In this document: in pieces, positions 7,810-18,189 of the stretch
Layout of the letters: every line of letters begins with the position of its first letter
Position numbering within the stretch: the stretch's first letter is position 1
The notes under the pieces: generated by a model
Seen by the model: the letters and a program-made list of their open reading frames with translations, nothing else
What the model was told of the DNA's origin: nothing
Databases searched by the model: none
DNA from: Candidatus Saccharibacteria bacterium UBA5150
Lineage (GTDB): Bacteria; Patescibacteriota; Saccharimonadia; Saccharimonadales; UBA4665
DNA: 64,000 nt
Direction of reading: 5' to 3'
Assembly (NCBI GenBank): GCA_002413795.1
Contig: DHXS01000009.1
Coordinates: 7,820-71,819, forward strand
Made by a program: the position numbers and the translations under genes

Positions 7810-8511
7810 TTAATCTGTCACGTCGGTTTGCTCGGGCACAATGCCCAGCTGTTGGTCCAGCGCGCGGTTGACGGCGGCGTCGGCCAGCTTGTTGAACTCG
7901 CGCGGCACATGGCTAAAGCTGATCTTTTCAAACTTTTCAGCCATTTGCCGGATAGCGTCGTGGATCGGCCAAAGGTCGCGGTTCTTAACTTTAAAGATGC
8001 CTTTCATCTGGTTAACCACCAGCAAGCTGTCCAGGTAGACCTGTACCTCGCGGACGCCCATCTTGAGACATTCTTCGAGGGCCAGTTTCAAGGCCGTGTA
8101 TTCGGCCTGGTTGTTGGTGGTAACGCCCAGGTAAACACCCTTGTCGACCAGTATGGTATCTTCCAGGTCGAGCACCACGAAGCCGCTGGCGCTAGGGCCG
8201 GGGTTGCCGCGCGAGCCGCCGTCGGCAAAGACTTTAACCTTTTCGGGATGCGGCTCAACATCGGCCGCGGCTGGCCGGCCGGCCACCAGCTCGTCAATGG
8301 CCTCGGCCATTTCATAGTCTTTATCGGTGATCTTCTTGCCGCCTTCGTGGGTGATCAGCCAGATCTGCACCACGCTCCACTCGTTTTCCCAGCGCGGGTG
8401 GTGCTGGGCCTCTTCGGCCAGCTCGGCCACCTTGGTCATAAAAGCCCACGCTTCTTTGAAATTTTCGAAGTTAAATTGCTTATAAAGCCCGTGTTTGGTT
8501 TCTTTCCACAT
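7810..8511 (-). CDS. Fusion protein: N-terminal PCD/DCoH-like domain plus C-terminal RNase HI
   Basis: The N-terminal sequence EEAQHHPRWENEWSVVQIWLITHEGG matches the pterin-4a-carbinolamine dehydratase motif. The C-terminal sequence FADGGSRGNPGPSA..AEYTALKLALEE..DSLLVVNQM..NKLADAA shows the RNase H DEDD pattern. Confidence 0.8.
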   Translation of the reverse strand: MWKETKHGLYKQFNFENFKEAWAFMTKVAELAEEAQHHPRWENEWSVVQIWLITHEGGKKITDKDYEMAEAIDELVAGRPAAADVEPHPEKVKVFADGGSRGNPGPSASGFVVLDLEDTILVDKGVYLGVTTNNQAEYTALKLALEECLKMGVREVQVYLDSLLVVNQMKGIFKVKNRDLWPIHDAIRQMAEKFEKISFSHVPREFNKLADAAVNRALDQQLGIVPEQTDVTD

Positions 8512-8672
8512 GCTCTCTATCTTAACATGGTCGGCCTTCAGACCTTACGCTTGAACTTAATCACATTATAATAGCTACTCGCAAGTACAAGCGATTCAAC
8601 AATCAGCTTCGTGATCTGCTGGAAATGCCCGAACGTGATAAGCCGGAGCAACCAGTAATGTTATAATTATAG

Positions 8673-8903
8673 GTGTTATTACAAGGGGTTGCAGCATTGA
8701 GTAATAAAAATAACCATTCCGAACTCACTAGGCTTCTGCTAAAAGCTAAGAAGCAGATTGAGGCTGGCGAAAATACTAGCAAGCGCAGTCAAACCGAGCT
8801 GACGAACGTGAAGCTCGACGAACATACGATTATCGGCAAGGATGGTATTCCGGTCAAAGAAACCGACCAGTCATCTGAAGATAAGACCATCGTTGCTGAA
8901 TAA
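8673..8903 (+). CDS. Hypothetical small protein (island)
   Basis: 76-aa ORF with a GTG start. An alternative TTG start near 8698 follows AAGGGG. No motif recognised. Confidence 0.35.
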   Translation: MLLQGVAALSNKNNHSELTRLLLKAKKQIEAGENTSKRSQTELTNVKLDEHTIIGKDGIPVKETDQSSEDKTIVAE

Positions 8904-8941
8904 CTATAAGCCAGACATAGCTTGAACTATAGAAAGAGACT

Positions 8942-9928
8942 ATGGCACAGCATCATTTTGTACCTCAGACGTACCTTAGAGGATTCGCCACAGACGACGA
9001 CAGTGAGCGTGTTTACTTTTATGATCGACGGATTGCCAACAAGGGTGTTACAAAGCGTCTGATTCAGGACGTGTGCAGCCAGAACAACCTGTATCGTCTA
9101 CTCATGGACGATGGTAAATATAAAGACGACTTGGAGCAAGATTTTGCCACAATAGCCGAACCGACATTTAAGGAAATAGTAGTTAAGCTCCTGGACTGTG
9201 AGCCACTATCACCAGAAGAAAAGAGTGAGTTTGCAGCATATATTAGTCTACAGATAATTAGAACTCCTGCTTCAAGGGAAATGTATAACGCTATGTCTAC
9301 AGAAATCATGAACAGAGCCGCAAACAAACAGTGGGAGAAATTGCTTGATGACCAGGAAAGACAAAGAGTTATGAGTGAGGTGAAAGAAGAAACAGGCTTT
9401 GATACCGGTGTACTGACGAAGGAGGATATTCAAGGCATTATTGATGGCACGAAGTTTAAGACTACGTGGACAATTCCGAAGGAGAACTGGCTCAAGCATA
9501 CGATGGAAACTATGGGTATGATTTTCAGAGCCTTTGAGAGAATGCACTGGCGAGTGTATTTCGCTGCTCCTGGCACGGCTTTCATTACGTCTGATAATCC
9601 AGTATCAGTGCTTGTACCAAAGCCCGATGGATTTTATGTTGGTTCAGGCTTTCTGAACAGAGGTTCGATACGCTTCTTTCCGCTTGCGAAAAACGCCTGT
9701 TTAACGATTACTGATAACGAACCGTCTGGCTTCAGCTTTGCTGATGCTAACAAGCGTCGAGTTCAGCAGATAAATAATGTTACCGCATTGTCGCACCATA
9801 AGATTATAATTAGTCATAGCCCACAGCTACTTGCTCGATGGGTGAAGCGGATTCCTGACGGCTTCAGTCTTACCGAAGCGGTTAAGGATTACCAAGCCCA
9901 AGACATACTCATGGGTAAGTACGATTGA
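8942..9928 (+). CDS. DUF4238-family protein
   Basis: The N-terminus MAQHHFVPQTYLRGF matches the characteristic H-(F/Y)-V-P-Q-x-Y-L-R-x-F start of DUF4238. 328 aa. Confidence 0.7.
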   Translation: MAQHHFVPQTYLRGFATDDDSERVYFYDRRIANKGVTKRLIQDVCSQNNLYRLLMDDGKYKDDLEQDFATIAEPTFKEIVVKLLDCEPLSPEEKSEFAAYISLQIIRTPASREMYNAMSTEIMNRAANKQWEKLLDDQERQRVMSEVKEETGFDTGVLTKEDIQGIIDGTKFKTTWTIPKENWLKHTMETMGMIFRAFERMHWRVYFAAPGTAFITSDNPVSVLVPKPDGFYVGSGFLNRGSIRFFPLAKNACLTITDNEPSGFSFADANKRRVQQINNVTALSHHKIIISHSPQLLARWVKRIPDGFSLTEAVKDYQAQDILMGKYD

Positions 9929-10074
9929 ACAGGTGTTCAGGAAATGTATAGGGTTTTGCTAGTCAATCCCCTAATGATTTAGATTTAAGCAAGTCTGTAA
10001 AGGGTCTAGCGAGGGTAAACGAGGGCGATGGAGATAAGAATAAGGGGTGGAGTGCAAACTGGGGTGGACTACTG

Positions 10075-10584
10075 ATGAAAAGTTCTAGCATAATGCTTGT
10101 CACTGAAGTGCCGGAGATTGATCTGTTTGAGTGCCTGAAATACGACCAAATGCGGAACTTAGGTCAGCTACGAACGTACTTACCGCATCCGTATAAAGGT
10201 TACGTATACATACAGCTTTGCCGGTCAAGAGTACGCTACGGTTGGCGTATCTGGTTTCAAGCTCCCTGCTGTCAACGGCGAACGACCAAGCTGTACATTT
10301 ACGGCACTCGCATTGCTTGCCGACAATGCCTAGACCTGAAATACCCAAGCCAGTACCGAAAAGATGCATTTGGTAGGTCAGGTATGACCCACCGCAAGCT
10401 AGTTCGCTTACAGAAACAAAAACGCCGATTAGGATATGGCGACTACCCGACACGATTCGGGGTTCAGTATAAAAAGCTCATGAACGAGAGTGAGATACAG
10501 ACCATTGAGACGTTTAGCCTTTTACAGCAGAAGCGTATGAAGTTGGATTTCGAACTGGCACGTACCGAACTTGCCGACGGTTAG
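10075..10584 (+). CDS. Hypothetical protein with a putative CxxC..CxxC zinc ribbon
   Basis: 169 aa with PCCQRRTTKLYIYGTRIACRQCLDLKY. Basic and low-GC. Confidence 0.5.
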   Translation: MKSSSIMLVTEVPEIDLFECLKYDQMRNLGQLRTYLPHPYKGYVYIQLCRSRVRYGWRIWFQAPCCQRRTTKLYIYGTRIACRQCLDLKYPSQYRKDAFGRSGMTHRKLVRLQKQKRRLGYGDYPTRFGVQYKKLMNESEIQTIETFSLLQQKRMKLDFELARTELADG

Positions 10585-10699
10585 TTTATTACGTGTTCAC
10601 GAAGCTGTTAAACGTCTCCAGAGGCTTAAACCACTATTCATACCTCTGCACTGATAAAACGCAGTACAGAGAAAATATAGAGTGATAACGAAAAAACAG

Positions 10700-11695
10700 C
10701 TAGGCATTCTTCTTGTGTTTCTTGCCTCGCTTTTTAGCAGGGTCTAATTTGAAGCTGAATGAGCTTTCGCTAACAGTATCAGGTTGAAACGGACTGTCAT
10801 TATTTTTGATAATCTTCAGCAGGTCAAGTTGATCGAATAGCTTCATTTCGTACTCGCCATTACTGTATCGCCAGTTACCGATACCGACGATTTGTTCGAG
10901 CATTGGCGTAAGTATATGAACGAACGCCCATTTCTGTTCCCAGCGAGTGAAAGTGTAGTTTCGTTGCAGTTGCTTGTAGCCAGCGTGGTCTTTATCGCTA
11001 ACGTAGCTCAGAAACACTAGAGCGTCGTCTTTATCGACTTTCATGATCTCACCGAGGCTGAAACCGAACTCGTCGCTGAACATTGCCAGCCCATGCTTGT
11101 AGCTGTTATAGGCATAGCTTTTGAGTAAATCACGCCCGAAGTAATCGAGGAAGACTGATAGATTATCTAGGCTCTTGTCCCAGACCTTTTTTGGCACAGT
11201 CTTTGGCTTATCAGTACGGCTGTAGAAAATCAAGCTCAGGCCAGTCTTGTGATCCACCGTGAAGTATTCCTGTTTGGTAAATGATTCGACGTCGGCCTTA
11301 AACTCCGAAAAGTTGTTGTTAATCGTTAGTTCGACCCAGGGGCAGTCTTTCGCTCGAACGTGAGCGAACATTATGCGGAATAGAGTCTCGATAGCATGAA
11401 AGTACGTTGTGGCGATCTCAGCCTTGAGGTTCTGTTCCAGTTTGTCTGATAGCAATTTAGCATCTTGCTCATCGTCGATTTTGACTCGTAATCGCTTAAA
11501 CGATACGCCCTGCTTGAGAATGTCTGTTGTAGATTTAGGATTGCCAAGCAATGCTAGAAGGTAAAAGCACTTCTGCAAAAAGTATTGAGTGTCGAATGAA
11601 ACGTAAAACTGCTTATTCAGTTTTGCGATTTCGGCAGATACTTTAGGGTCTTGCTTTGTCATTGCTTCAGTTGGCATTTGGTATGATTTTACCAT
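10700..11695 (-). CDS. Hypothetical protein (island cargo, unknown family)
   Basis: 331-aa ORF with a Lys-rich C-terminus, divergent from the 11739 gene. No recognisable motif. Confidence 0.6.
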   Translation of the reverse strand: MVKSYQMPTEAMTKQDPKVSAEIAKLNKQFYVSFDTQYFLQKCFYLLALLGNPKSTTDILKQGVSFKRLRVKIDDEQDAKLLSDKLEQNLKAEIATTYFHAIETLFRIMFAHVRAKDCPWVELTINNNFSEFKADVESFTKQEYFTVDHKTGLSLIFYSRTDKPKTVPKKVWDKSLDNLSVFLDYFGRDLLKSYAYNSYKHGLAMFSDEFGFSLGEIMKVDKDDALVFLSYVSDKDHAGYKQLQRNYTFTRWEQKWAFVHILTPMLEQIVGIGNWRYSNGEYEMKLFDQLDLLKIIKNNDSPFQPDTVSESSFSFKLDPAKKRGKKHKKNA

Positions 11696-11738
11696 TTTTG
11701 ACTTGCCAAAATAAACGACTTATGCTATGATAGCAAAC

Positions 11739-12818
11739 ATGACAGAACAACTACGCCCACAAGAAACCCAAGTATCACCAGAGCAAGTATTACAAGCTGG
11801 TTCTGAGTTCCTACAGCACTTCGGTGTTGAAGTAAGTCCTACTGAGCAACCAGACCAATTTATGGAAGCTATGAAGCAGTTAGACCCTCGTTATGAAGGT
11901 GGTCGTGAGTTGGTTCGCTATGAACTAGCTGAAGACCAGCGTGAATGGCCCGAAGAAACTAAGCAAGTAATTATGAACGGTGCTGAAAGCATGGGAATGC
12001 TGAAGCCCGAAACCCCTCTAGTTGGTGATATTGATGTTGTTATCGCTCTTGGTGGAGCTAACCAGCAAAACCACGAACGCCCTCGTTATGCACTTGAGGC
12101 TATGAAAAAGGGCGAAGCCACATTTAAGCAGTTAGTAATTGCTGGCTCAAGCCGTAAATTAAAAGAAGGCGAACAAAAGAATACTGCAAATTATGCTCCT
12201 GGTGCTGAAACTGAGTTTGACCTTTGTGTCGCTGGCGCAGCCATGCTTGCAAAGGAATATCCAGGTGTTCCAATTAGCGTATTGTTCGTAGATGATGAAA
12301 AAGCTGGCACACCTGACGTTATTGAGGGTGTCTTAGCAGCCGAACAAGCTAACGGTACTCTACAGCCAAACAGTCGTGTTGCTGCGATAACTACTCAAAT
12401 CTACCAAGAATCAACAGAACTTGACCTTGCACGTGTATCAAACAAGTTTGGTATTGCTGAGACTCAAACTGCTGGCATTCCTTCACCTGCTAAAACCATT
12501 GAGGGTCGTACCCCTGCTACTTATAAGAGCGAGATTATACGAACTCTTAAAGCTGCTGCCAATGGAGCAGTAGCTGAAAAAGTTGCAAAAGTTGCTCATG
12601 CTGAAAAAGTCGGTCAAATTGCTACAGCTACGGCGGCTAATCGTGCAGAACAGATAAAAATTGCCAATGCAAATAACGCTAATAACTCAGATATGCTACT
12701 TGATGAGAACGGAGTAGACCAGTGGGGATTTACTCTTGAGGATCATGAAGCTGGAAGATATCGTAGTGGTGGTCTTGTCTACAATGGCTGGAATGACCCA
12801 GGAATGTACGACGAGTAG
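11739..12818 (+). CDS. Hypothetical protein, weak DUF218/YdcF-ElyC-like core
   Basis: The stretch DVVIALGGANQQN..RPRYALEAMKKG..LVIAGSS..AETEFDLCVAGAAMLAKEYPGVP resembles the DUF218 pattern. The track start at 11727 lies inside the -10 element (CTTATGCTATGAT), so ATG 11739 is preferred. Confidence 0.55.
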   Translation: MTEQLRPQETQVSPEQVLQAGSEFLQHFGVEVSPTEQPDQFMEAMKQLDPRYEGGRELVRYELAEDQREWPEETKQVIMNGAESMGMLKPETPLVGDIDVVIALGGANQQNHERPRYALEAMKKGEATFKQLVIAGSSRKLKEGEQKNTANYAPGAETEFDLCVAGAAMLAKEYPGVPISVLFVDDEKAGTPDVIEGVLAAEQANGTLQPNSRVAAITTQIYQESTELDLARVSNKFGIAETQTAGIPSPAKTIEGRTPATYKSEIIRTLKAAANGAVAEKVAKVAHAEKVGQIATATAANRAEQIKIANANNANNSDMLLDENGVDQWGFTLEDHEAGRYRSGGLVYNGWNDPGMYDE

Positions 12819-12909
12819 ATATCCCACAGTGTCCTGTTAGTAAGATGTGTAATATAGTACTGTTTTAACCGATTATTAGTGCTAGTTAAGATGCAAGGAG
12901 ATATAAGTT

Positions 12910-13182
12910 ATGAGCGGAGAAGGCCAACCAAGATTTGATATTGAAGCTGAACGAGCAAGGTATGAAGCTGTGCCAGAGTTTCAAGAACTACAGGCACAAG
13001 TTCCTGACGCTTTAGAAATGGTTACTTCAACTCGTGGTGAAGAAGGTTTACGAGGTCAAGAACTTGCTGATTATTGGGACAATATAGGCAAAGATTCGGG
13101 TGGTTTTTATGATGACATTAGAGAGAATGGCTGCTCAAGCTGTGGCTCTCACACACCTGGCTGTTGCGACGGTTGCGCATAA
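12910..13182 (+). CDS. Small acidic protein with a C-terminal Cys cluster
   Basis: 90 aa. AGGAGA lies upstream. It ends in NGCSSCGSHTPGCCDGCA (6 Cys in the last 16 residues). Confidence 0.5.
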   Translation: MSGEGQPRFDIEAERARYEAVPEFQELQAQVPDALEMVTSTRGEEGLRGQELADYWDNIGKDSGGFYDDIRENGCSSCGSHTPGCCDGCA

Positions 13183-13214
13183 GCTAGTTACATCATCAAT
13201 AAACTAGGCTTATA

Positions 13215-14075
13215 ATGTCTGAAGTGTCTAAAACGCCAGAAAACTCTTACAACCAATTCTTTGAAGAAGCCCTATATCAACCTGTGCCTGACATGGGTGA
13301 ACTACGAGAGCGTAAAAAGGGGTATAACGAGCTGTCTATTGATACGATTAACCCCTTGTTCACTGAGCCTGTCGTTGATATTGCCGACTATGACATCGCT
13401 GGGCAAGCCTACTATTCACGATCTAACGCCACAACAGAAGAGACTGTACTTGGTGTGCCGACTAGCTTATATCTTCGCAAGTCAATAGCTGAGACGTTGG
13501 CTAAGATAAACGCCTCTTTGCAAAATCCTGCTGTTGCGAAGTTCTTTGATGGAGAGGTTGAGCTTTACGTTGAGGATGCTCTGCGACCTGTATCACTGCA
13601 AACACGTCTCCACGATGAGCTTATACCAACACTCCTGCATAAAAATCACCCCGAAATGAGCGATGACGAGATTGCCGATCGTATCAAGGATATTATCGCC
13701 GTACCTTCAACTGACCTGAAAAAGCCTTCACCGCACTCGACTGGCGGTGCTTTGGATATAATCTTGAGGTACAGACAGCCCTTGCCTGGCTATGTTGACG
13801 GAGTTAGTATATCCGTTGGACACGTTGACGGTGAAACCAGTACGAGGATAAATCCTGATTACTTTGAGCAACATGAGCCACAATCTGATGAAGACAAGCT
13901 GGCTCAACGCAACCGCCGTGCTTATTATGCGATTATGACTGGTGCTGCATTTGGTACTGAGACAGGTTTAGTAAATAACCCGACCGAGTGGTGGCATTGG
14001 GGTAGAGGCGACCAGCTTTCCGCAAAGGTACACGGCGATTATACAGCTTACTACTCTCTAGTAGAACCGTCCTGA
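13215..14075 (+). CDS. VanX/DdpX-type D-alanyl-D-alanine dipeptidase (peptidase M15D)
   Basis: SPHSTGGALD matches SxHxxGxAxD, and EWWHW is also present. 286 aa. Confidence 0.8.
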   Translation: MSEVSKTPENSYNQFFEEALYQPVPDMGELRERKKGYNELSIDTINPLFTEPVVDIADYDIAGQAYYSRSNATTEETVLGVPTSLYLRKSIAETLAKINASLQNPAVAKFFDGEVELYVEDALRPVSLQTRLHDELIPTLLHKNHPEMSDDEIADRIKDIIAVPSTDLKKPSPHSTGGALDIILRYRQPLPGYVDGVSISVGHVDGETSTRINPDYFEQHEPQSDEDKLAQRNRRAYYAIMTGAAFGTETGLVNNPTEWWHWGRGDQLSAKVHGDYTAYYSLVEPS

Positions 14076-14263
14076 CCTACCGTCCAGCTTTATCACTAGT
14101 GTACTTGTACTTGTTATCAGGTAGAGCTGGCAAGAAAACGGAATCAAAAGCAGTAGAAGCCTGATACGCACATTTTATTAACCGCTAAAATTAGTTCAGC
14201 TTGCCGATCATATTGTAGTTAGTTATTGTGGTAAAAAACTTTTGTTTACCCATGTTAAAAACA

Positions 14264-14291
14264 TTGACATCAGTGTGGTCAAAGTTACAAT
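14264..14291 (+). promoter_or_regulatory. Near-consensus sigma70 promoter
   Basis: TTGACA (14264-14269), a 16-nt spacer, TACAAT (14286-14291). AGGAGG (14315-14320) precedes GTG 14326. Confidence 0.5.
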
Positions 14292-14325
14292 AATACATAC
14301 ACACACTAAATAGCAGGAGGCAACC

Positions 14326-15282
14326 GTGCAGCAAAAAATGTTAAAAAATGAGGTAAAGGCTCTAGTGCCATTTTCACCGTCATTGTTAAAGTCAGCAATT
14401 CAGAAGTCAGTACGGAGAGGCGACGTAGACAAGGCAGTCAGGACAGCCAAGAGTCTTATCCAATTAAACGAAGTCGATGCGTTGCGTAGGCTCATGATAA
14501 TCCCAGTGGAAGACTGTATATTGCCACCGGATTACGATAAATACGCAGCCATGCTTACTAAGGTTAGCGCAAAAGGCAGCCAGCCATTGACTGAAGATGA
14601 AAAGACTTCGGCACTTTCAATAATTGGAGACGTAGCCTGGTGTGAATGGCGTGACCTGGATGTTGGCAATCTGGATGATGAGGGCAAAGATTACGCTATG
14701 CAACCAGTTCAAGGCAATAAAGAGAACGATCTGGTAAACGCCCTGCTCTACAGGGCTAGAGCTGGTGGCTCTCGGTGGGATGTGCCAATGTTAAATCAGA
14801 TGGCTAGAGTGTGGAACAAACGGTTCGCTGAAAAGAGTTGGGATATTGAAAAAATGAAGTCGTATTTTACTGGCAAAGTCATCAACTGGAACGATGTTCC
14901 TTACGCAACCGTAGACGACATCATGCTTGAAGCGGTAGATTTTCACTGCAGTGGCATACTGTACACTCTTTTGAAGATAGATTGGATAAAAGACCTATTG
15001 AGAAAAGAGATACCGTTTAATAAAAGGAATTGGTTAGGCTCTGATATGAGCTACGTTAATCTGTTAGAACAGATAATGTGGACTACCAGATCGAGCATCA
15101 ATTACAAGAAAAATATATGGGAAACTCAGGTTGGCAAAGACCAGCCGGTTAGTTGGCTGTGGGCTGATAACGTACCGGAAGCAATGTGGCCGGTGTATGA
15201 GCATATAACAGAGGCGATACGTGAAGAAACAGATAACATCAGTCGATGGATTATTCGCACACAAGGTGAAAAGGTGTTATGA
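14326..15282 (+). CDS. Hypothetical protein; the N-terminus weakly resembles the MgsA/RarA C-terminal helical domain
   Basis: 318 aa. SLLKSAIQKSVRRGDVDKAVRTAKSLI..ALRRLMIIPVEDCILP resembles the RarA lid region. Its stop overlaps the integrase start (ATGA). Confidence 0.6.
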   Translation: MQQKMLKNEVKALVPFSPSLLKSAIQKSVRRGDVDKAVRTAKSLIQLNEVDALRRLMIIPVEDCILPPDYDKYAAMLTKVSAKGSQPLTEDEKTSALSIIGDVAWCEWRDLDVGNLDDEGKDYAMQPVQGNKENDLVNALLYRARAGGSRWDVPMLNQMARVWNKRFAEKSWDIEKMKSYFTGKVINWNDVPYATVDDIMLEAVDFHCSGILYTLLKIDWIKDLLRKEIPFNKRNWLGSDMSYVNLLEQIMWTTRSSINYKKNIWETQVGKDQPVSWLWADNVPEAMWPVYEHITEAIREETDNISRWIIRTQGEKVL

Positions 15283-16169
15283 CCACTGACTTAGTGTCGA
15301 TGCCAAAACGCAACGTAGATGACATCATCGGTGCGTTAGATGTCAGCCAGAACACCAGGGATGAATACAAGAACCGAATCAAGCCATTCCTGGCGTTCGT
15401 GCAAGCCGAAGGTTTGTCGCTGAACGTGCTACTGGAATACAAACGAACTCTGAGCGCTCGTGAGGATTATAGCGTGTCTACTCGCAACAAATACCTGGCA
15501 ACAGCTAGGGTGTTTATGAAAGAATGCTATTGCCTCGGCATTGTGGATCGTGATGTAACGTCAAATGTACGGAGCTTCAAGCAAGACCGGCAACATAAGG
15601 TCACCGGCCTGACTAATGAGGAGGTGTTGCTAATCTGTGTGTGGCTTCGTCAGAACCCTGAAAAGCTGCGTGAACGTGCATTACTCTGTCTACTGCTGTT
15701 CCAGGGGCTGAGACAGGCCGAAATCTGCAATATAAGGCTCAGGGACGTTGATCTGAAAGAAGGTACAATGTTTATACTCGGTAAGGGTCGGGATGACTAT
15801 GAACGAGTACATCTGCACCCGAACACCACTAGAGCGTTGAGACGCTTTTGCCGAAGCCTCAAGTTACAATCCGGTGATTACTTGTTCACTAGCAAACGAA
15901 GGCAAAGCAAAGCCGTGAAGCTCACTACCAGAGGTTTGCAAGGTATTGTTAAGGGGGTTTTTGAGGAATTAGGTATTGACCGAACCGTTCATGGTTGCCG
16001 TCATTTCCATGCCTCAAAGCTCATACAAGCTATGCCAGGCGAATTATCAGTGGTTGCCCGATTTACTAGGCATAGAAGCCTCGAAACTCTCAGAATATAC
16101 GATGATAACCGGCTAATGCTAAGGGACGTTGAACACTACCGGAGAGCCTTCAGTGATCTCAAAATATAG
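15279..16169 (+). CDS. Tyrosine recombinase / phage-type integrase
   Basis: The catalytic pattern is present: GLRQAE (R), HGCRHFHAS (HxxR), RHRSLETLRIYDD (H..Y). Confidence 0.85.
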   Translation: MTTDLVSMPKRNVDDIIGALDVSQNTRDEYKNRIKPFLAFVQAEGLSLNVLLEYKRTLSAREDYSVSTRNKYLATARVFMKECYCLGIVDRDVTSNVRSFKQDRQHKVTGLTNEEVLLICVWLRQNPEKLRERALLCLLLFQGLRQAEICNIRLRDVDLKEGTMFILGKGRDDYERVHLHPNTTRALRRFCRSLKLQSGDYLFTSKRRQSKAVKLTTRGLQGIVKGVFEELGIDRTVHGCRHFHASKLIQAMPGELSVVARFTRHRSLETLRIYDDNRLMLRDVEHYRRAFSDLKI

Positions 16170-16264
16170 CCACTTATTTCGCATAATACTCATTACACGA
16201 AATAACCTGAATCTTTTTACCAGCACTGTTTTACAGCTATAATTAAGGTAATTGGAGGCAACCA

Positions 16265-17971
16265 GTGGACGACGGCAACAAAGCTAAAGATTATATTATT
16301 CAGACTATTCGGGACATGATAGGTGAAGACCAGGATGAAATCGCCTTCTCGGAACTTAAATACGTGCTGTACGCTCGTAAATCTACAACCGGCAAGAATA
16401 AGAAGAACCGTGAACGCCAAGAACAGTCGATTCCTTCACAGATTAAAGCCTGTAAAGAAGCTGCTATGCGTGACCCAAAAATCCATATTGCAAAGATCAT
16501 CATCGAGAAACGCTCTGCCAAAGAGCCTGGCATCAGGAAAAAGTTCAACAAAATTATCGACCAGATTAAAGTTGGCACTTATGATGGCATAATTACGTAC
16601 GCCCCTGATCGTCTCGCCAGAAACATGAAGGAAGGAGGTGAAATTATAGATATGCTCGACCGGCGTGAGATTAAAGACCTCAGGTTCGCCACATACAGTT
16701 TCGAGAACACTCCGATGGGTAAGATGCTACTTGGCGTGTCATTCGTATTGTCTAAGCAGTATTCCGACCATCTGAGCGTTGTGGTAAAGCGTGGCAACAA
16801 AGATGCAATAGAGGTAGCCAACTTTATCGGTAAGTTTAAGCATGGGTACTACAAGAATAAGGATGGCCGGCTTTATCCTGACATGACTAACGGTAATTGG
16901 GAGCTTATAAAAAACGTGTTCGATATGCGTCTGAATGATAACGCAACAGGTACTGAGCTGGCTAAGTACCTGAACAGGAACGGTTATGAAATCCACCGAG
17001 CTGATGGGAGACATAAGTACATATTTACCGACAAACGTGTGTCAGAGATGCTGCGTGACCCATTTTACGCCGGTATTCTGGTTTACGGTTCTCAGATCAT
17101 AGATTTGCAGGAGGTTTACGATTTCACGCCCATAATTGAGCCTGACGATTTTCTGAAGATCAATAAGGCTGACAGTTTCCTAAACACTAACTTCCGATTG
17201 GCTCGGAAAGCTCTAACACCGGTGGGAGTTAGTGCTAACATGATGAACGGCATGATTATCTGTAACGACTGTAAAGAGCCGATGTCTGCCGGTATAATGA
17301 AGAAGTACCAGGGTTCTGGCGACAGTAAAAGGCTCATCGAACTTCGACTGTTGTACCGTTGCGATACAGAAGACTGCAGGTTCTTTAACAAGTCGTGCCG
17401 AGCCAAGTATGTTACTGACTTCATTTATGATTTTCTGGACAAGCACAAGTTTACCAGCAGAGAGGAATATGAGCATTACCTGGAAGATATGACCGAGGAA
17501 GTCGAGCGCAAGACAGCAGATATTACGCAGGAAATAAGATCGCTCATACGCCAGCGAACTGAAAAAGATAAAGATTACAAAAATACCAAAGCTCTGCTTA
17601 GAGAGGAGCCGGAGGAAGCTAAGCACTTTAAGGACGACTTGGATGAGCTGAAGGCAGACCTAAAGTCTATTAACGATGATATTGATACTAACGAGAAGCT
17701 GAAAGTCGAGCTGAGCGATACAAAGCTCAATTATGAGGAATATCTTGAACTTTTTGGAAAAGTGACCGATCTACTCAAGAAAACTTACTATATTGATGAC
17801 AAGGATGCGATTATCCGAAAGTTCTACTTGAACTTCACGGTTCAGGGCGAAATGCAGCCGAGCGGAAAGCAAGTAAAACAGTGGTCAGTAGTCGATTATG
17901 AGCTTGCTGAACCATTCGCTACATTCGTAAAAACCCATAATTCCCTGTCTGGTCGGGGTGACAGGACTTGA
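16265..17971 (+). CDS. Large serine recombinase
   Basis: YARKSTTGK and DRLARN match the resolvase domain. A recombinase domain, a Cys-rich zinc ribbon (CNDCKE..CDTEDC) and a coiled coil follow. The stop TGA 17969-17971 lies inside tRNA-Pro. Confidence 0.9.
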   Translation: MDDGNKAKDYIIQTIRDMIGEDQDEIAFSELKYVLYARKSTTGKNKKNRERQEQSIPSQIKACKEAAMRDPKIHIAKIIIEKRSAKEPGIRKKFNKIIDQIKVGTYDGIITYAPDRLARNMKEGGEIIDMLDRREIKDLRFATYSFENTPMGKMLLGVSFVLSKQYSDHLSVVVKRGNKDAIEVANFIGKFKHGYYKNKDGRLYPDMTNGNWELIKNVFDMRLNDNATGTELAKYLNRNGYEIHRADGRHKYIFTDKRVSEMLRDPFYAGILVYGSQIIDLQEVYDFTPIIEPDDFLKINKADSFLNTNFRLARKALTPVGVSANMMNGMIICNDCKEPMSAGIMKKYQGSGDSKRLIELRLLYRCDTEDCRFFNKSCRAKYVTDFIYDFLDKHKFTSREEYEHYLEDMTEEVERKTADITQEIRSLIRQRTEKDKDYKNTKALLREEPEEAKHFKDDLDELKADLKSINDDIDTNEKLKVELSDTKLNYEEYLELFGKVTDLLKKTYYIDDKDAIIRKFYLNFTVQGEMQPSGKQVKQWSVVDYELAEPFATFVKTHNSLSGRGDRT

Positions 17972-18025
17972 ACCTGCGACCTCACGGCCCCCAGCCGTAC
18001 GCGCTACCAACTGCGCCACACCCCG
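17950..18025 (-). tRNA. tRNA-Pro (anticodon GGG), CCA encoded
   Basis: The reverse complement folds as a cloverleaf: acceptor CGGGGTG/CACCCCG, anticodon loop CTGGGGG, T-loop TTCAAGT. 76 nt. Confidence 0.9.
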
Positions 18026-18046
18026 AAGTCTTGTGGCATGAATAGA

Positions 18047-18189
18047 GTCGGGCACCGGGTTTGATCACCTGAGGGATCCCAGGTGGGTGCCCGCACGTCC
18101 CGACCACGGTCGGCACAAATATTGGACTCCCTAATGATTAATATCAGATAATCATTCGCCCGGCGGGGGCTTATTAGGCCCTGCCCGAC
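18047..18189. ncRNA. Structured intergenic element, candidate ncRNA (class and strand unknown)
   Basis: Closing helix GTCGGGCA (18047-18054) / TGCCCGAC (18182-18189). Internal hairpins: 18066-18085 (6 bp), 18133-18156 (8 bp), 18158-18170 (4 bp) and 18087-18116. Confidence 0.35.

What the first reader, a model, noticed from the sequence alone, without database searches (positions are those of the whole stretch)
16265..18025. The large serine recombinase ORF ends inside tRNA-Pro, sharing its last 22 nt with the tRNA 3' end
Seen: the ORF ends ..TCT GGT CGG GGT GAC AGG ACT TGA (stop at 17969-17971). Nucleotides 17950-17971 are also the reverse complement of the tRNA T-arm/acceptor 3' end (CCTGTCACCCCGACCA). 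Inference: the element side of the junction supplies the tRNA 3' end, so the attachment site lies at or within the recombinase C-terminus. Excision would then change both the protein tail and the tRNA end. From established knowledge, insertion at a tRNA 3' end is classic for tyrosine integrases and uncommon for large serine recombinases. Both enzymes are adjacent here, so it is unclear which one catalysed the insertion or whether one is cargo or a remnant of a nested element.
Basis: partly seen in the sequence, partly recalled or inferred. Interest (0 to 1): 0.6.

Follow-up and report, generated by a model that had tools for sequence, protein, structure and literature searches.

The report
Serine integrase gene spanning its attP
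A 9.4-kb mobile island in a tiny Saccharibacteria genome was inserted at the very end of a tRNA-Pro gene by its own large serine recombinase, whose recombination site lies inside its own gene, so insertion replaces the enzyme's last 43 residues with four residues read off the tRNA.

Summary
The 568-aa large serine recombinase (LSR) ORF (16265-17971) ends 22 nt inside tRNA-Pro(GGG) (17950-18025, minus strand).

It is the right end (attR) of a 9.4-kb low-GC island (8528-17949). A relative (G020) has the empty site. The heptamer TGGTCGG flanks the island at 8528 and 17950.

Joining the two ends keeps the LSR frame open, giving a 607-aa free form. Its 43-aa tail is coding: a 92%-identical copy elsewhere differs at 7 sites, all third codon positions.

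Three other genera carry unrelated islands at the same spot. They share only an LSR (31-34% identity) and have no tyrosine recombinase, so the LSR made the insertion and the Xer-like tyrosine recombinase is cargo.

The layout is family-wide in Patescibacteria. In 66 of 80 species-level loci the LSR ORF runs into an antisense tRNA (48 tRNA-Pro). Across 41 islands the attL/attR identity narrows to GTCG (C71-C74).

The tRNA T-loop motif CTYGAAC lies at +17..+23 in attB and 5 bp further out in attP. This is the known zinc-ribbon-motif signature of serine integrases. The tRNA sequence is unchanged.

The role of the tail is unknown. I found no published description. This scan has already reported the same family at other tRNAs on other DNA.

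The parts
8528..8534 (+). attL core TGGTCGG, identical to the tRNA 3' end; this is the left end of the island
   Evidence: TGGTCGG occurs only at 8528 and 17950 within 8000-18100. Homology to the left flank in relatives stops at about 8530-8532. Homology of the island's left end in L036, L127 and L128 starts at 8525-8528 with three other upstream contexts.
8535..8560 (+). P' arm of the element's attP, now in attL, with CTTGAAC at 8550-8556 (GAAC at +25..+28 from the core T)
   Evidence: GAAC sits at +25 in all 10 attP-type junctions that were found without using this motif. The consensus of 43 islands is CTcGAACT at +22..+29. There is no substitution in the first 60 nt when compared with L036.
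8529..8666 (+). Detached 3' end of the LSR gene: codons G-R plus a 43-aa tail (PSDLTLELNHIIIATRKYKRFNNQLRDLLEMPERDKPEQPVML) and TAA at 8664-8666. It is preceded by an in-frame TAA at 8523-8525, so it is read only when joined to an LSR gene.
   Evidence: The LSR frame is open for 45 codons, against 8 and 13 in the other frames. P0121 carries this tail, 42 of 43 residues identical, fused to another LSR. All 7 nucleotide differences are at third codon positions and 6 are synonymous. It is the best of 2209 six-frame segments for an HMM built from 31 tails of other genomes, E=0.0026.
8697..8903 (+). orf68, a small ORF that would lie 30 nt downstream of the full-length LSR gene in the circular form; function unknown, a candidate regulator or directionality factor
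   Evidence: Against L036 it shows 8 synonymous and 4 non-synonymous differences. A small ORF occupies this position in most of the related islands. It has no hit in Pfam, PHROGs or PADLOC.
8942..15282 (.). Cargo genes: DUF4238 (8942-9928), 169-aa (10075-10584), 331-aa (10700-11695, minus strand), 363-aa (11727-12818), 90-aa (12910-13182), VanX/M15-like peptidase (13215-14075), 318-aa (14326-15282)
   Evidence: Pfam, PHROGs, PADLOC and NCBIfam scans. GC is 43-47% against 50-62% in the flanks. All except the 331-aa ORF have counterparts (64-93% aa identity) in the sister island L031, whose contig breaks off inside the DUF4238 gene. None is shared with the islands of G023, G012 or G009.
15279..16169 (+). 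Xer-like tyrosine recombinase (296 aa), part of the island's cargo and not the integrase of this junction
   Evidence: Pfam Phage_integrase. The best NCBIfam matches are XerA, XerC and XerD, all below the curated cut-offs. Close homologues (39-46%) occur in only 3 of 40 relatives, at other loci without an LSR match or a tRNA in the 3.8-kb loci fetched. It is absent from the G023, G012 and G009 islands.
16216..16243 (+). Promoter-like site (TTTACC, 16-nt spacer, TATAAT) upstream of the LSR start codon
   Evidence: Consensus scan only, 10 of 12 positions matched.
16265..17971 (+). Integrated form of the large serine recombinase gene, 568 aa: residues 1-564 come from the element and GDRT plus the stop are read from antisense tRNA-Pro
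   Evidence: All residues invariant in the 20-sequence alignment are present, including Y36, R38 and S40 of the motif that holds the catalytic serine and four cysteines, C333, C336, C366 (90% or more) and C371. An AlphaFold model of homologue P0060 is confident up to the GR codons.
17950..17982 (+). attR: core TGGTCGG (17950-17956) and the B' arm, which is the tRNA acceptor and T arm, with CTTGAAC at 17967-17973 (GAAC at +20..+23, the complement of G53-T54-T55-C56)
   Evidence: Sequence read directly and the consensus of 43 islands. The motif is 5 bp closer to the core than in the P' arm, as described for serine-integrase attB versus attP (PMC3783163).
17950..18025 (-). tRNA-Pro(GGG), intact, with an encoded CCA
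   Evidence: ARAGORN. The tRNA is 97-100% identical in most relatives, up to and including the TGG (CCA) at its end.

Best explanation
Window 8528-17949 is an integrated copy of a small integrative element of Candidatus Saccharibacteria. Its own large serine recombinase (LSR) inserted it at the 3' end of tRNA-Pro(GGG).

In the free circular form the LSR gene has 607 codons and runs across attP. The P arm is the codons just before G563-R564. The crossover lies in GTCG within those two codons. The P' arm is the first roughly ten codons of a 43-aa tail.

The enzyme pairs this attP with an attB whose specific half is the tRNA itself: CCA, discriminator, acceptor strand and T arm. The T-loop motif CTYGAAC serves as the zinc-ribbon-domain motif. 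It lies 5 bp closer to the crossover in attB than in attP.

Exchange within GTCG (tRNA C71-C74) leaves the tRNA sequence unchanged. It moves the tail codons 9.4 kb away to the left junction (8529-8666), where they are silent. It also gives the integrated gene a new end, GDRT-stop, read from antisense tRNA. Excision would restore the 607-aa gene.

Shown here by comparative sequence analysis: the boundaries, the empty site, the shared core, the coding nature of the tail, the family-wide layout, and the absence of any link between the tyrosine recombinase and this site. Inferred: the catalysis itself, the exact dinucleotide (GT, TC or CG), and that the element is still active.

My working guess, held at about one in three, is that the two isoforms differ in activity, direction or stability, so the enzyme senses whether its element is integrated.
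For: Island and empty site:
- GC falls to 43-47% between about 9 and 18 kb.
- The left flank (infC to the PCD/RNase H gene) and tRNA-Pro plus the S2P protease gene are neighbours in relatives. In G020 they are separated by the 41-nt spacer between the PCD/RNase H start codon and the tRNA.

Core and tail:
- TGGTCGG occurs exactly twice per locus in G000, G023 and G012, at the left junction and at the tRNA.
- Joining the ends leaves the LSR frame open for 45, 48 and 55 codons, against 8-38 in the other frames.

The LSR as the agent:
- The islands of G023, G012 and G009 share only an LSR (31-34% identity) with G000 and have no tyrosine recombinase.
- One LSR lineage (82-91% identity over about 540-557 residues) carries five different sequences after GR, and the homology ends at, or (where the next residues also agree) a few residues past, GR.

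Left boundary and mobility:
- The island's left end occurs at 91-95% identity behind three other upstream contexts (L036, L127, L128). Homology starts at 8525-8528 each time.

Tail is translated:
- All 7 differences from L036 are at third codon positions (P about 5e-4) and 6 are synonymous.
- The tail length is conserved: 23 of 33 tails have 44-45 codons.
- An HMM built from other genomes' tails picks 8526-8663 as the best segment in the window.

Family scale:
- In 66 of 80 loci the LSR ORF overlaps an antisense tRNA 3' end.
- TGGTCG-N19-GAAC lies upstream on the LSR strand in 33 of 48 tRNA-Pro loci, against 1 hit on the opposite strand in 391 kb.
- The attL/attR identity across 41 islands intersects to GTCG.

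Serine-integrase site anatomy:
- The CTYGAAC motif is 5 bp further from the core in P' than in B'. This matches the attP/attB rule of Rutherford et al. 2013 (PMC3783163).
Against: - No recombination was observed.
- The exact attP joint of this element was not found in JGI metagenome contigs or IMG/VR.
- No attP-type contig could be shown to be circular. These joints could be junctions inside tandem arrays rather than free circles.
- The left half-sites (B and P arms) show no shared motif or dyad symmetry, which is unusual for serine-integrase sites.
- A GTTC in the P arm of many members would place the symmetry centre at +0.5, outside the GTCG block. It coincides with conserved G-F codons and may reflect coding alone. 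This remains unexplained.
- The tail is modelled with low confidence (pLDDT 32-48), and its function is not shown.
Confidence: 0.88

Rival explanations
1. The adjacent Xer-like tyrosine recombinase inserted the island at the tRNA 3' end, as in classic tRNA-targeting islands. On this view the LSR is cargo or a remnant of a nested element.
For: A tyrosine recombinase gene (15279-16169) lies within 1.8 kb of the tRNA. tRNA 3' ends are the textbook target of tyrosine integrases. The gene is conserved at 91% in the sister island L031.
Against: The only direct repeat flanking the island is 7 nt. No tRNA-segment duplication was found. Islands at the identical position in G023, G012 and G009 have no tyrosine recombinase. 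Homologues of this enzyme in relatives lie at other loci, with no tRNA or LSR match in the 3.8-kb loci fetched. The breakpoints fall in the LSR reading frame and show the serine-integrase 5-bp motif shift.
Confidence: 0.03
2. The LSR made the insertion, but the 43-aa tail has no role of its own. The frame stays open only because the P' arm and downstream DNA are constrained, and the two protein forms are equivalent.
For: The first 60 nt after the core are invariant against L036, as expected for a DNA site. The Glu codon at +25 is explained by the GAAC motif. The tail is poorly modelled. Tails are very diverse, and a 6-sequence HMM failed to find this one. The same LSR lineage tolerates several unrelated tails.
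Against: The open frame extends about 100 nt beyond any plausible 25-30 bp half-site in more than 40 islands, with a narrow length distribution of mostly 44-45 codons. Substitutions beyond the arm are all third-position and mostly synonymous. Conserved features include LLELF.YI, a later L.R motif and a non-polar C-terminus. In SPbeta SprA the extreme C-terminus affects directionality (Abe et al. 2021, as cited in PMC11722253).
Confidence: 0.3
3. The island is a fixed fossil: the LSR inserted it in the past but it can no longer move.
For: There is no direct evidence of excision (closed; negative). The island has no recognisable transfer, replication or phage structural genes.
Against: The LSR ORF is intact and all family-invariant residues are present. 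Both junctions and the detached tail frame are intact. Near-identical or sister copies sit in other genomes with different flanks, including one on the opposite side of the locus (L031, L047, L127, L128).
Confidence: 0.12
4. The 22-nt overlap is a chance read-through past the true end of the LSR gene.
For: None beyond the fact that the last four codons are not conserved as protein.
Against: The same phase and position recur in 66 of 80 loci and across several tRNA species. There is no conserved upstream stop.
Confidence: 0.01

Closest known systems
Large serine integrases of phages and integrative elements (Listeria A118/LI Int, phiC31, Bxb1, SPbeta SprA)
   Same: The domain set is the same: resolvase catalytic domain, recombinase domain, Cys4 zinc ribbon and a long coiled-coil insert. 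The att sites are short with a very short crossover identity. The zinc-ribbon-domain motif lies 5 bp further from the centre in attP than in attB (PMC3783163).
   Different: attP lies inside the integrase's own coding sequence, so integration changes the protein. The target is the 3' end of a tRNA gene. Only the tRNA-side half of attB is conserved. The hosts are Patescibacteria. The elements are 2.5-9.4 kb with no phage genes.
Integration-dependent immunity of mycobacteriophage BPs and relatives (attP inside repressor gene 33; PMC4557955)
   Same: attP lies within an ORF, so the free and integrated forms encode proteins with different C-termini. In BPs the free form is 33 residues longer.
   Different: In BPs the split gene is the repressor and the enzyme is a tyrosine integrase. 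The lost tail is a proven ssrA-like degradation tag. Here the split gene is the serine recombinase itself and no function of the tail is shown.
SSV1-type fusellovirus integrases (from established knowledge)
   Same: attP lies inside the integrase gene, and integration into a tRNA gene partitions that gene.
   Different: They belong to the tyrosine recombinase family and occur in archaeal viruses. The split divides the gene into two large parts, whereas here only the last 43 codons are exchanged.
P4-like tyrosine-integrase genomic islands at tRNA 3' ends
   Same: An island abuts the 3' end of an intact tRNA gene, with a recombinase gene next to the tRNA.
   Different: Those islands are flanked by direct repeats of a tRNA 3' segment (typically 15 nt or more) and use tyrosine chemistry. 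Here the repeat is 7 nt and the tyrosine recombinase is not linked to the site.
SprA extreme C-terminal element and engineered integrase-RDF fusions (Abe et al. 2021, cited in PMC11722253; PMC5737554)
   Same: Changes or additions at the C-terminus of a large serine integrase alter its directionality.
   Different: Those are laboratory mutations and fusions. Here nature alternates two C-termini according to integration state, and the effect has not been tested.
tRNA-end serine-recombinase elements of Patescibacteria reported earlier by this scan (at tRNA-Met, Glu, Gln, Thr, Lys, Leu)
   Same: The layout is the same: the LSR gene spans attP, insertion is at the CCA end, and the tail is swapped.
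   Different: This copy is at tRNA-Pro(GGG), is large (9.4 kb), carries an extra tyrosine recombinase, and has no spare inverted attP.

Membership tests
Large serine recombinases (serine integrases) | N-terminal resolvase-type catalytic domain with the catalytic serine | tested here: met
   Pfam PF00239, E=5e-18. Y36, R38 and S40 of the YARKS motif are invariant in the 20-sequence alignment.
Large serine recombinases (serine integrases) | Recombinase domain (PF07508) following helix E | tested here: met
   PF07508, E=2e-10, residues 212-301. PHROG 95 'integrase', E=6e-45.
Large serine recombinases (serine integrases) | Cys4 zinc-ribbon domain with an inserted coiled coil | tested here: met
   C333, C336 and C371 are invariant and C366 is present in 90% or more of sequences. 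PF13408 is recorded for many homologues, though it did not reach threshold for the window protein itself. The AlphaFold model of homologue P0060 has long paired helices at 391-474 between beta elements.
Large serine recombinases (serine integrases) | Short att sites with minimal crossover identity, and a zinc-ribbon motif shifted 5 bp between attP and attB | tested here: met
   The shared block is 7 nt here and intersects to 4 nt (GTCG) over 41 islands. CTYGAAC lies at +17..+23 in B' and at +22..+28 in P' (rule from PMC3783163). This holds only for the tRNA-side half-sites. The other half-sites show no motif.
Large serine recombinases (serine integrases) | Catalyses attP x attB recombination without host factors | not testable with these tools
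   This needs a recombination assay.
Tyrosine-integrase tRNA islands (P4-like) | Island flanked by direct repeats of a tRNA 3' segment | tested here: not met
   There is no second copy of the tRNA 3' 27-mer with up to 3 mismatches. No long direct repeat links the two ends. Only TGGTCGG is shared.
Tyrosine-integrase tRNA islands (P4-like) | The tyrosine integrase is consistently associated with the target site in related islands | tested here: not met
   It is absent from the G023, G012 and G009 islands at the same site. Homologues in G018, G007 and G037 lie elsewhere, with no tRNA or LSR match in the 3.8-kb loci fetched.
Integration-dependent (attP-in-ORF) switches such as BPs gp33 | attP inside an ORF, so that free and integrated forms have different C-termini | tested here: met
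   The free form is 607 aa and the integrated form 568 aa.
Integration-dependent (attP-in-ORF) switches such as BPs gp33 | The lost tail carries a degradation tag that makes the free form unstable | tested here: inconclusive
   Tails end in non-polar residues (LVF, LVY, VAL, VML and similar). No tmRNA was found in the 88.5%-complete assembly for comparison, and protein stability cannot be tested here.
Integration-dependent (attP-in-ORF) switches such as BPs gp33 | The split gene is the immunity repressor and the enzyme is a tyrosine integrase | tested here: not met
   The split gene is the serine recombinase itself.

The most novel reading that the evidence does not exclude
The tail swap is a built-in integration-state sensor. 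The 607-aa free form and the 568-aa integrated form of the recombinase would differ in directionality, activity or half-life, with the roughly 43-aa two-helix tail acting in cis on the zinc-ribbon/coiled-coil hinge, or as a C-terminal degron. A minimal 2.5-9 kb element could then control integration versus excision with little or no separate directionality factor. Because only the tRNA-side half of attB is specific, new elements could also insert next to resident ones, building tandem arrays and reshuffling tails.
Probability: 0.3. Interest if true: 0.85.

Novelty: new variant of a known kind. Interest (0 to 1): 0.62.

Why it matters
Serine integrases are major genome-engineering tools, and how their direction is controlled is an active structural question. 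Three points make this family worth attention.

- It is a very large natural family: more than 2000 database homologues, and 66 of the 80 species-level loci examined show the layout. The enzyme's own gene crosses attP, so the protein differs between the free and integrated states.
- The target is one of the most conserved sequences in biology, the tRNA acceptor end plus the GTTC of the T loop. It is read with the canonical 5-bp attP/attB offset.
- One half of attB appears to be unspecific.

This gives a directly testable system for studying C-terminal control of directionality and half-site requirements. It also identifies the main small mobile elements of Patescibacteria, a group for which few genetic tools exist.

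For this window specifically, the analysis settles which of the two adjacent recombinases made the island and fixes its boundaries to the nucleotide block.

Tried and rejected
- Free form: the exact attP joint of this element was absent from JGI metagenome contigs and IMG/VR.
- Circularity: none of the small contigs with attP-type joints has terminal overlaps.
- First tail HMM: a model built from six database attP-type tails did not detect the window's tail. Only the 31-tail HMM did, and part of that score comes from the GR and LEL residues that the search pattern selects for.
- Dyad symmetry: scans of the reconstructed attP and attB gave nothing above background.
- P-arm motif: a GTTC in the P arm, mirror to GAAC, would centre the site at +0.5. 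This is inconsistent with the GTCG block and coincides with conserved G-F codons, so I do not use it.
- Solved structures: the PDB profile search aligned only up to the zinc ribbon and coiled coil of A118 Int, so it says nothing about the C-terminus.
- Structure prediction: AlphaFold gave low confidence for the tail, so docking cannot be inferred.
- Degron comparison: ARAGORN found no tmRNA in the assembly.
- Spare inverted attP: earlier scan reports on other elements describe one. I looked for it here and found none.
- Cargo: PADLOC and PHROGs gave only DUF4238 and the two recombinases.
- Literature: seven full-text searches found no description of this layout.
Full report
**1. The observation**

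The ORF 16265-17971 (+, 568 aa) ends TCT GGT CGG GGT GAC AGG ACT TGA. ARAGORN places tRNA-Pro(GGG) at 17950-18025 on the minus strand. The last 22 nt of the ORF are therefore the reverse complement of the tRNA's CCA, discriminator, 3' acceptor strand, 3' T-stem strand and part of the T loop.

Pfam finds Resolvase and Recombinase domains in this ORF. It finds a Phage_integrase domain in the ORF just upstream, 15279-16169.

**2. The island and its empty site**

GC content is 43-47% from about 9 kb to 18 kb, against 50-62% on both sides. The genome is about 0.7 Mb in 25 contigs. Near-identical and related loci are labelled Candidatus Saccharibacteria.

Searching 40 relatives with each flank shows that the flanks are neighbours in many genomes. 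The left flank is infC-rpmI-rplT and the gene for a pterin-dehydratase/RNase H fusion (7810-8511, minus strand). The right flank is tRNA-Pro plus the S2P protease gene.

In G020 only the 41-nt spacer after the fusion gene's start codon separates it from the tRNA 3' end. This is an empty site. No relative's left-flank match goes beyond window position about 8532.

In every relative the tRNA is conserved up to and including TGG (the CCA end). The sequence diverges immediately beyond that point.

**3. The junctions**

TGGTCGG occurs at only two places between 8000 and 18100: at 8528 and at 17950. No longer copy of the tRNA 3' end exists in the window.

Three further genera carry an LSR gene ending ...GRGDRT-stop inside the same tRNA. 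These are G023, G012 and G009.

In G023 and G012 the same heptamer again occurs exactly twice, once at the tRNA and once at the far end of a 4-5 kb insert. Those islands share no gene with the island here except the LSR, at 31-34% identity. They have no tyrosine recombinase.

**4. The LSR gene crosses attP**

Joining the sequence left of 17950 to the sequence from 8528 onward keeps the LSR frame open.
- G000: 45 more codons, giving 607 aa.
- G023: 48 more codons, giving 596 aa.
- G012: 55 more codons, giving 573 aa.
- The other two frames close after 8-38 codons.

A database search with the joined protein's last 63 residues found P0121. This is a different LSR, only 33% identical in its body. 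After the same G-R it carries a tail matching the peptide encoded at 8535-8663 at 42 of 43 residues.

Its contig (L036) is 92% identical to window 8525-8831, and the similarity begins at the core. Within the tail all 7 nucleotide differences are at third codon positions (P about 5e-4). Six are synonymous and one is Asp to Glu. The first 60 nt after the core are invariant. The tail is therefore a translated coding sequence, although in this genome an in-frame TAA (8523-8525) precedes it.

Two more metagenome contigs (L127, L128) carry the island's left end at 91-95% identity behind two further, unrelated upstream sequences. In L127 that upstream sequence is the S2P-protease side of the locus. 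Homology again starts at 8526-8528.

In all there are four different left contexts with one breakpoint. This fixes the boundary and shows that this type of element has inserted more than once.

**5. The layout is the rule for a large clade**

The LSR has more than 2000 database homologues at E<=1e-10. I classified the tails of the best 120.
- 42 end GRGxRT-stop.
- 31 read on through antisense tRNA-Pro (GRGERTRTFDLTVPNRAR...).
- 17 end at GRG.
- Six have long non-tRNA tails after GR.
- Several have tails derived from other tRNAs.

A scan of one genome per species returned 80 loci, mostly Saccharibacteria/Saccharimonadales plus many other Patescibacteria lineages. In 66 of them the LSR ORF's 3' end overlaps the 3' end of an antisense tRNA.
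- tRNA-Pro: 48.
- Other tRNAs (18 in all): Leu 5, Asp 4, Val 3, Ala 3, Gly 2, Arg 1.

In 33 of the 48 tRNA-Pro loci the signature TGGTCG-N19-GAAC lies upstream on the LSR strand, 36 hits in total. The opposite strand of the same 391 kb has 1 hit.

Behind these hits the LSR-phase frame is open for 34-49 codons. In 23 of 33 cases it is 44 or 45 codons. It encodes a recognisable tail family: GR......LEL-F.YI....., a later L.R, and a non-polar C-terminus.

An HMM built from 31 such tails picks window 8526-8663 as the best of 2209 six-frame segments (E=0.0026). Part of that score is built in by the search pattern.

Core-to-core island lengths are 2.5-9.3 kb. The island here, at 9,422 bp, is the largest.

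**6. Where the exchange happens and how the site is read**

I relaxed the search pattern to GTCG-N19-GAAC. Over 41 islands, the block of identity shared by the two junctions intersects to positions +2..+5, counting the T of TGG as 0. This block is GTCG, corresponding to tRNA C71-G72-A73-C74. The crossover dinucleotide must be GT, TC or CG. The element can therefore contribute at most the last few nucleotides of the tRNA, and these are identical.

On the tRNA side, the consensus of 43 islands shows ACTcGAACCT with GAAC at +20..+23. This is the complement of the universal G53-T54-T55-C56.

The element's P' arm has CTcGAACT with GAAC at +25..+28. All ten attP-type junctions found without using this motif have GAAC at exactly +25. 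These are seven database ORFs plus G000, G023 and G012.

At the protein level this appears as six unconserved residues after GR followed by Glu and then Pro, Leu or His. That pattern points to a DNA-level constraint.

A motif 5 bp further from the centre in attP than in attB is the published hallmark of zinc-ribbon-domain placement by serine integrases. The motif occupies positions 16-24 in attP against 11-19 in attB (Rutherford et al. 2013, PMC3783163).

The other half-sites behave differently. The host-side B arm is merely T-rich and unconserved. The P arm's conservation coincides with conserved codons. No dyad symmetry is detectable. I leave this unexplained. It suggests that the tRNA half carries the specificity.

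**7. Hybrid joints and arrays**

One LSR lineage (82-91% identical over about 540-557 residues) is found with five different continuations after GR: three tRNA-derived and two unrelated long tails. Similarity ends at GR, or a few residues beyond where the next residues also agree.

G009, L067 and L123 carry two or three P' arms in series. L036 joins a foreign LSR to this element's left end.

These facts fit insertion of one element next to another, or exchange between elements at the core. As a consequence, the database "attP forms" may be array junctions rather than free circles. None could be shown to be circular.

**8. The tyrosine recombinase**

The tyrosine recombinase is Xer-like but below every NCBIfam cut-off. 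It is 24-28% identical to the single chromosomal Xer of these genomes.

Close homologues (39-46% identity) occur in only 3 of 40 relatives, at other loci, with no tRNA or LSR match in the 3.8-kb loci fetched. It travels with this island lineage: the sister island L031 has it at 91% identity. It is not linked to the tRNA-Pro site. I read it as cargo with an unknown role, possibly multimer resolution of the circular form. That last suggestion is inference.

**9. The tail**

An AlphaFold model of homologue P0060 was built on a 67-sequence alignment. Its mean pLDDT is 84.

The model is confident up to the GR residues at 549-550. The last confident elements are two beta strands and a short helix that follow the coiled coil. 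The integrated form therefore keeps every folded domain.

The tail itself has pLDDT 32-48 and forms two short helices. Nothing can be said about where it docks.

Published work shows that the extreme C-terminus of SPbeta SprA influences directionality, and that the essential helix of its directionality factor packs beside that region (PMC11722253). Fusing a directionality factor to an integrase's C-terminus reverses its preference (PMC5737554). Mycobacteriophage BPs uses an attP inside its repressor gene to remove a degradation tag on integration (PMC4557955).

These are analogies, not tests. I put about 0.3 on the tail being a state-dependent regulator and about 0.3 on it having no role of its own.

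**10. What kind of element this is**

No phage structural, replication or conjugation genes were found. The cargo comprises:
- a DUF4238 protein, which matches a candidate-defence model in PADLOC;
- a VanX/M15-like peptidase;
- several proteins of unknown function;
- the tyrosine recombinase.

In related islands a small ORF and often a roughly 135-aa helix-turn-helix protein follow the tail directly. The island here has only the small ORF (8697-8903). In the circular form this would sit 30 nt behind the full-length LSR gene. How the element moves between cells is unknown.

**11. Novelty**

Seven full-text searches found no description of serine integrases whose gene spans attP at tRNA 3' ends. 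The large LSR survey I checked does not mention tRNA targets.

This scan has already reported the same family on other DNA, at tRNA-Met, Glu, Gln, Thr, Lys and Leu. I read those notes after reaching my own reading.

This case adds:
- the tRNA-Pro branch;
- the narrowing of the crossover to GTCG;
- the 5-bp T-loop motif shift;
- the codon-position evidence that the tail is translated;
- a copy that lacks the "spare inverted attP" described for other members.

**12. Limits**

Everything here is comparative sequence analysis. No recombination, excision or expression was observed.

Noticed in passing
window 17950-18025 and relatives G005, G007, G014, G015, G026, G027, G032, G035; L127: In at least eight relatives the tRNA-Pro gene is inverted relative to both flanks, so its 3' end faces the S2P protease gene instead of the RNase H fusion gene. 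L127 shows an island of this type inserted on that side.
   Followed up: partly
G017:C45, G029:C3/C10/C16, G031:C13/C21, G034:C8/C11: Several assemblies have contigs that end inside this tRNA-Pro, at about nt 50-56 from either end. This may reflect population heterogeneity or repeated copies at this insertion hot spot.
   Followed up: no
L015 (G001), L016 (G018), L018 (G024), L019 (G008): The space downstream of tRNA-Pro is variable even without an LSR. It holds 1.9 kb in the same-genus G001, 4 kb with a 901-aa protein in G018, and 12 kb of repetitive surface-like proteins in G024.
   Followed up: no
L028 (G009) reverse strand 81 and 1666; L067; L123: Two or three P'-arm/tail modules lie in series upstream of one LSR. 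These are tandem arrays or LSR-less remnants, and some have decayed frames.
   Followed up: partly
Related islands, e.g. L085 347-757, L090 371-781, L027 3077-3499, L035 12043-12456: A small ORF (54-96 aa) followed by a conserved helix-turn-helix protein of about 135 aa (HTH_23 in L035) sits directly after the LSR tail in at least 11 islands. These are candidates for a regulator or directionality factor. The island here has only the small ORF.
   Followed up: partly
window 7810-8511 (-): The left-flank gene is a fusion of pterin-4a-carbinolamine dehydratase with an RNase H/RVT_3 domain (Pfam). It is conserved across the family.
   Followed up: no
window 18078-18157: The non-coding stretch between tRNA-Pro and the S2P protease gene is conserved at 79% in metagenome contig L127. 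This is consistent with a structured or regulatory element there.
   Followed up: no
whole assembly G000: ARAGORN finds 42 tRNAs but no tmRNA in the 88.5%-complete assembly.
   Followed up: no
L059, L080, L081, L091, L093, L096, L098, L099, L103, L105, L109-L111, L113-L115, L119, L120: Members of the same LSR clade end inside tRNA-Ala, Leu, Asp, Arg, Gly and Val genes in the same manner. Target switching between tRNAs has therefore occurred repeatedly.
   Followed up: no
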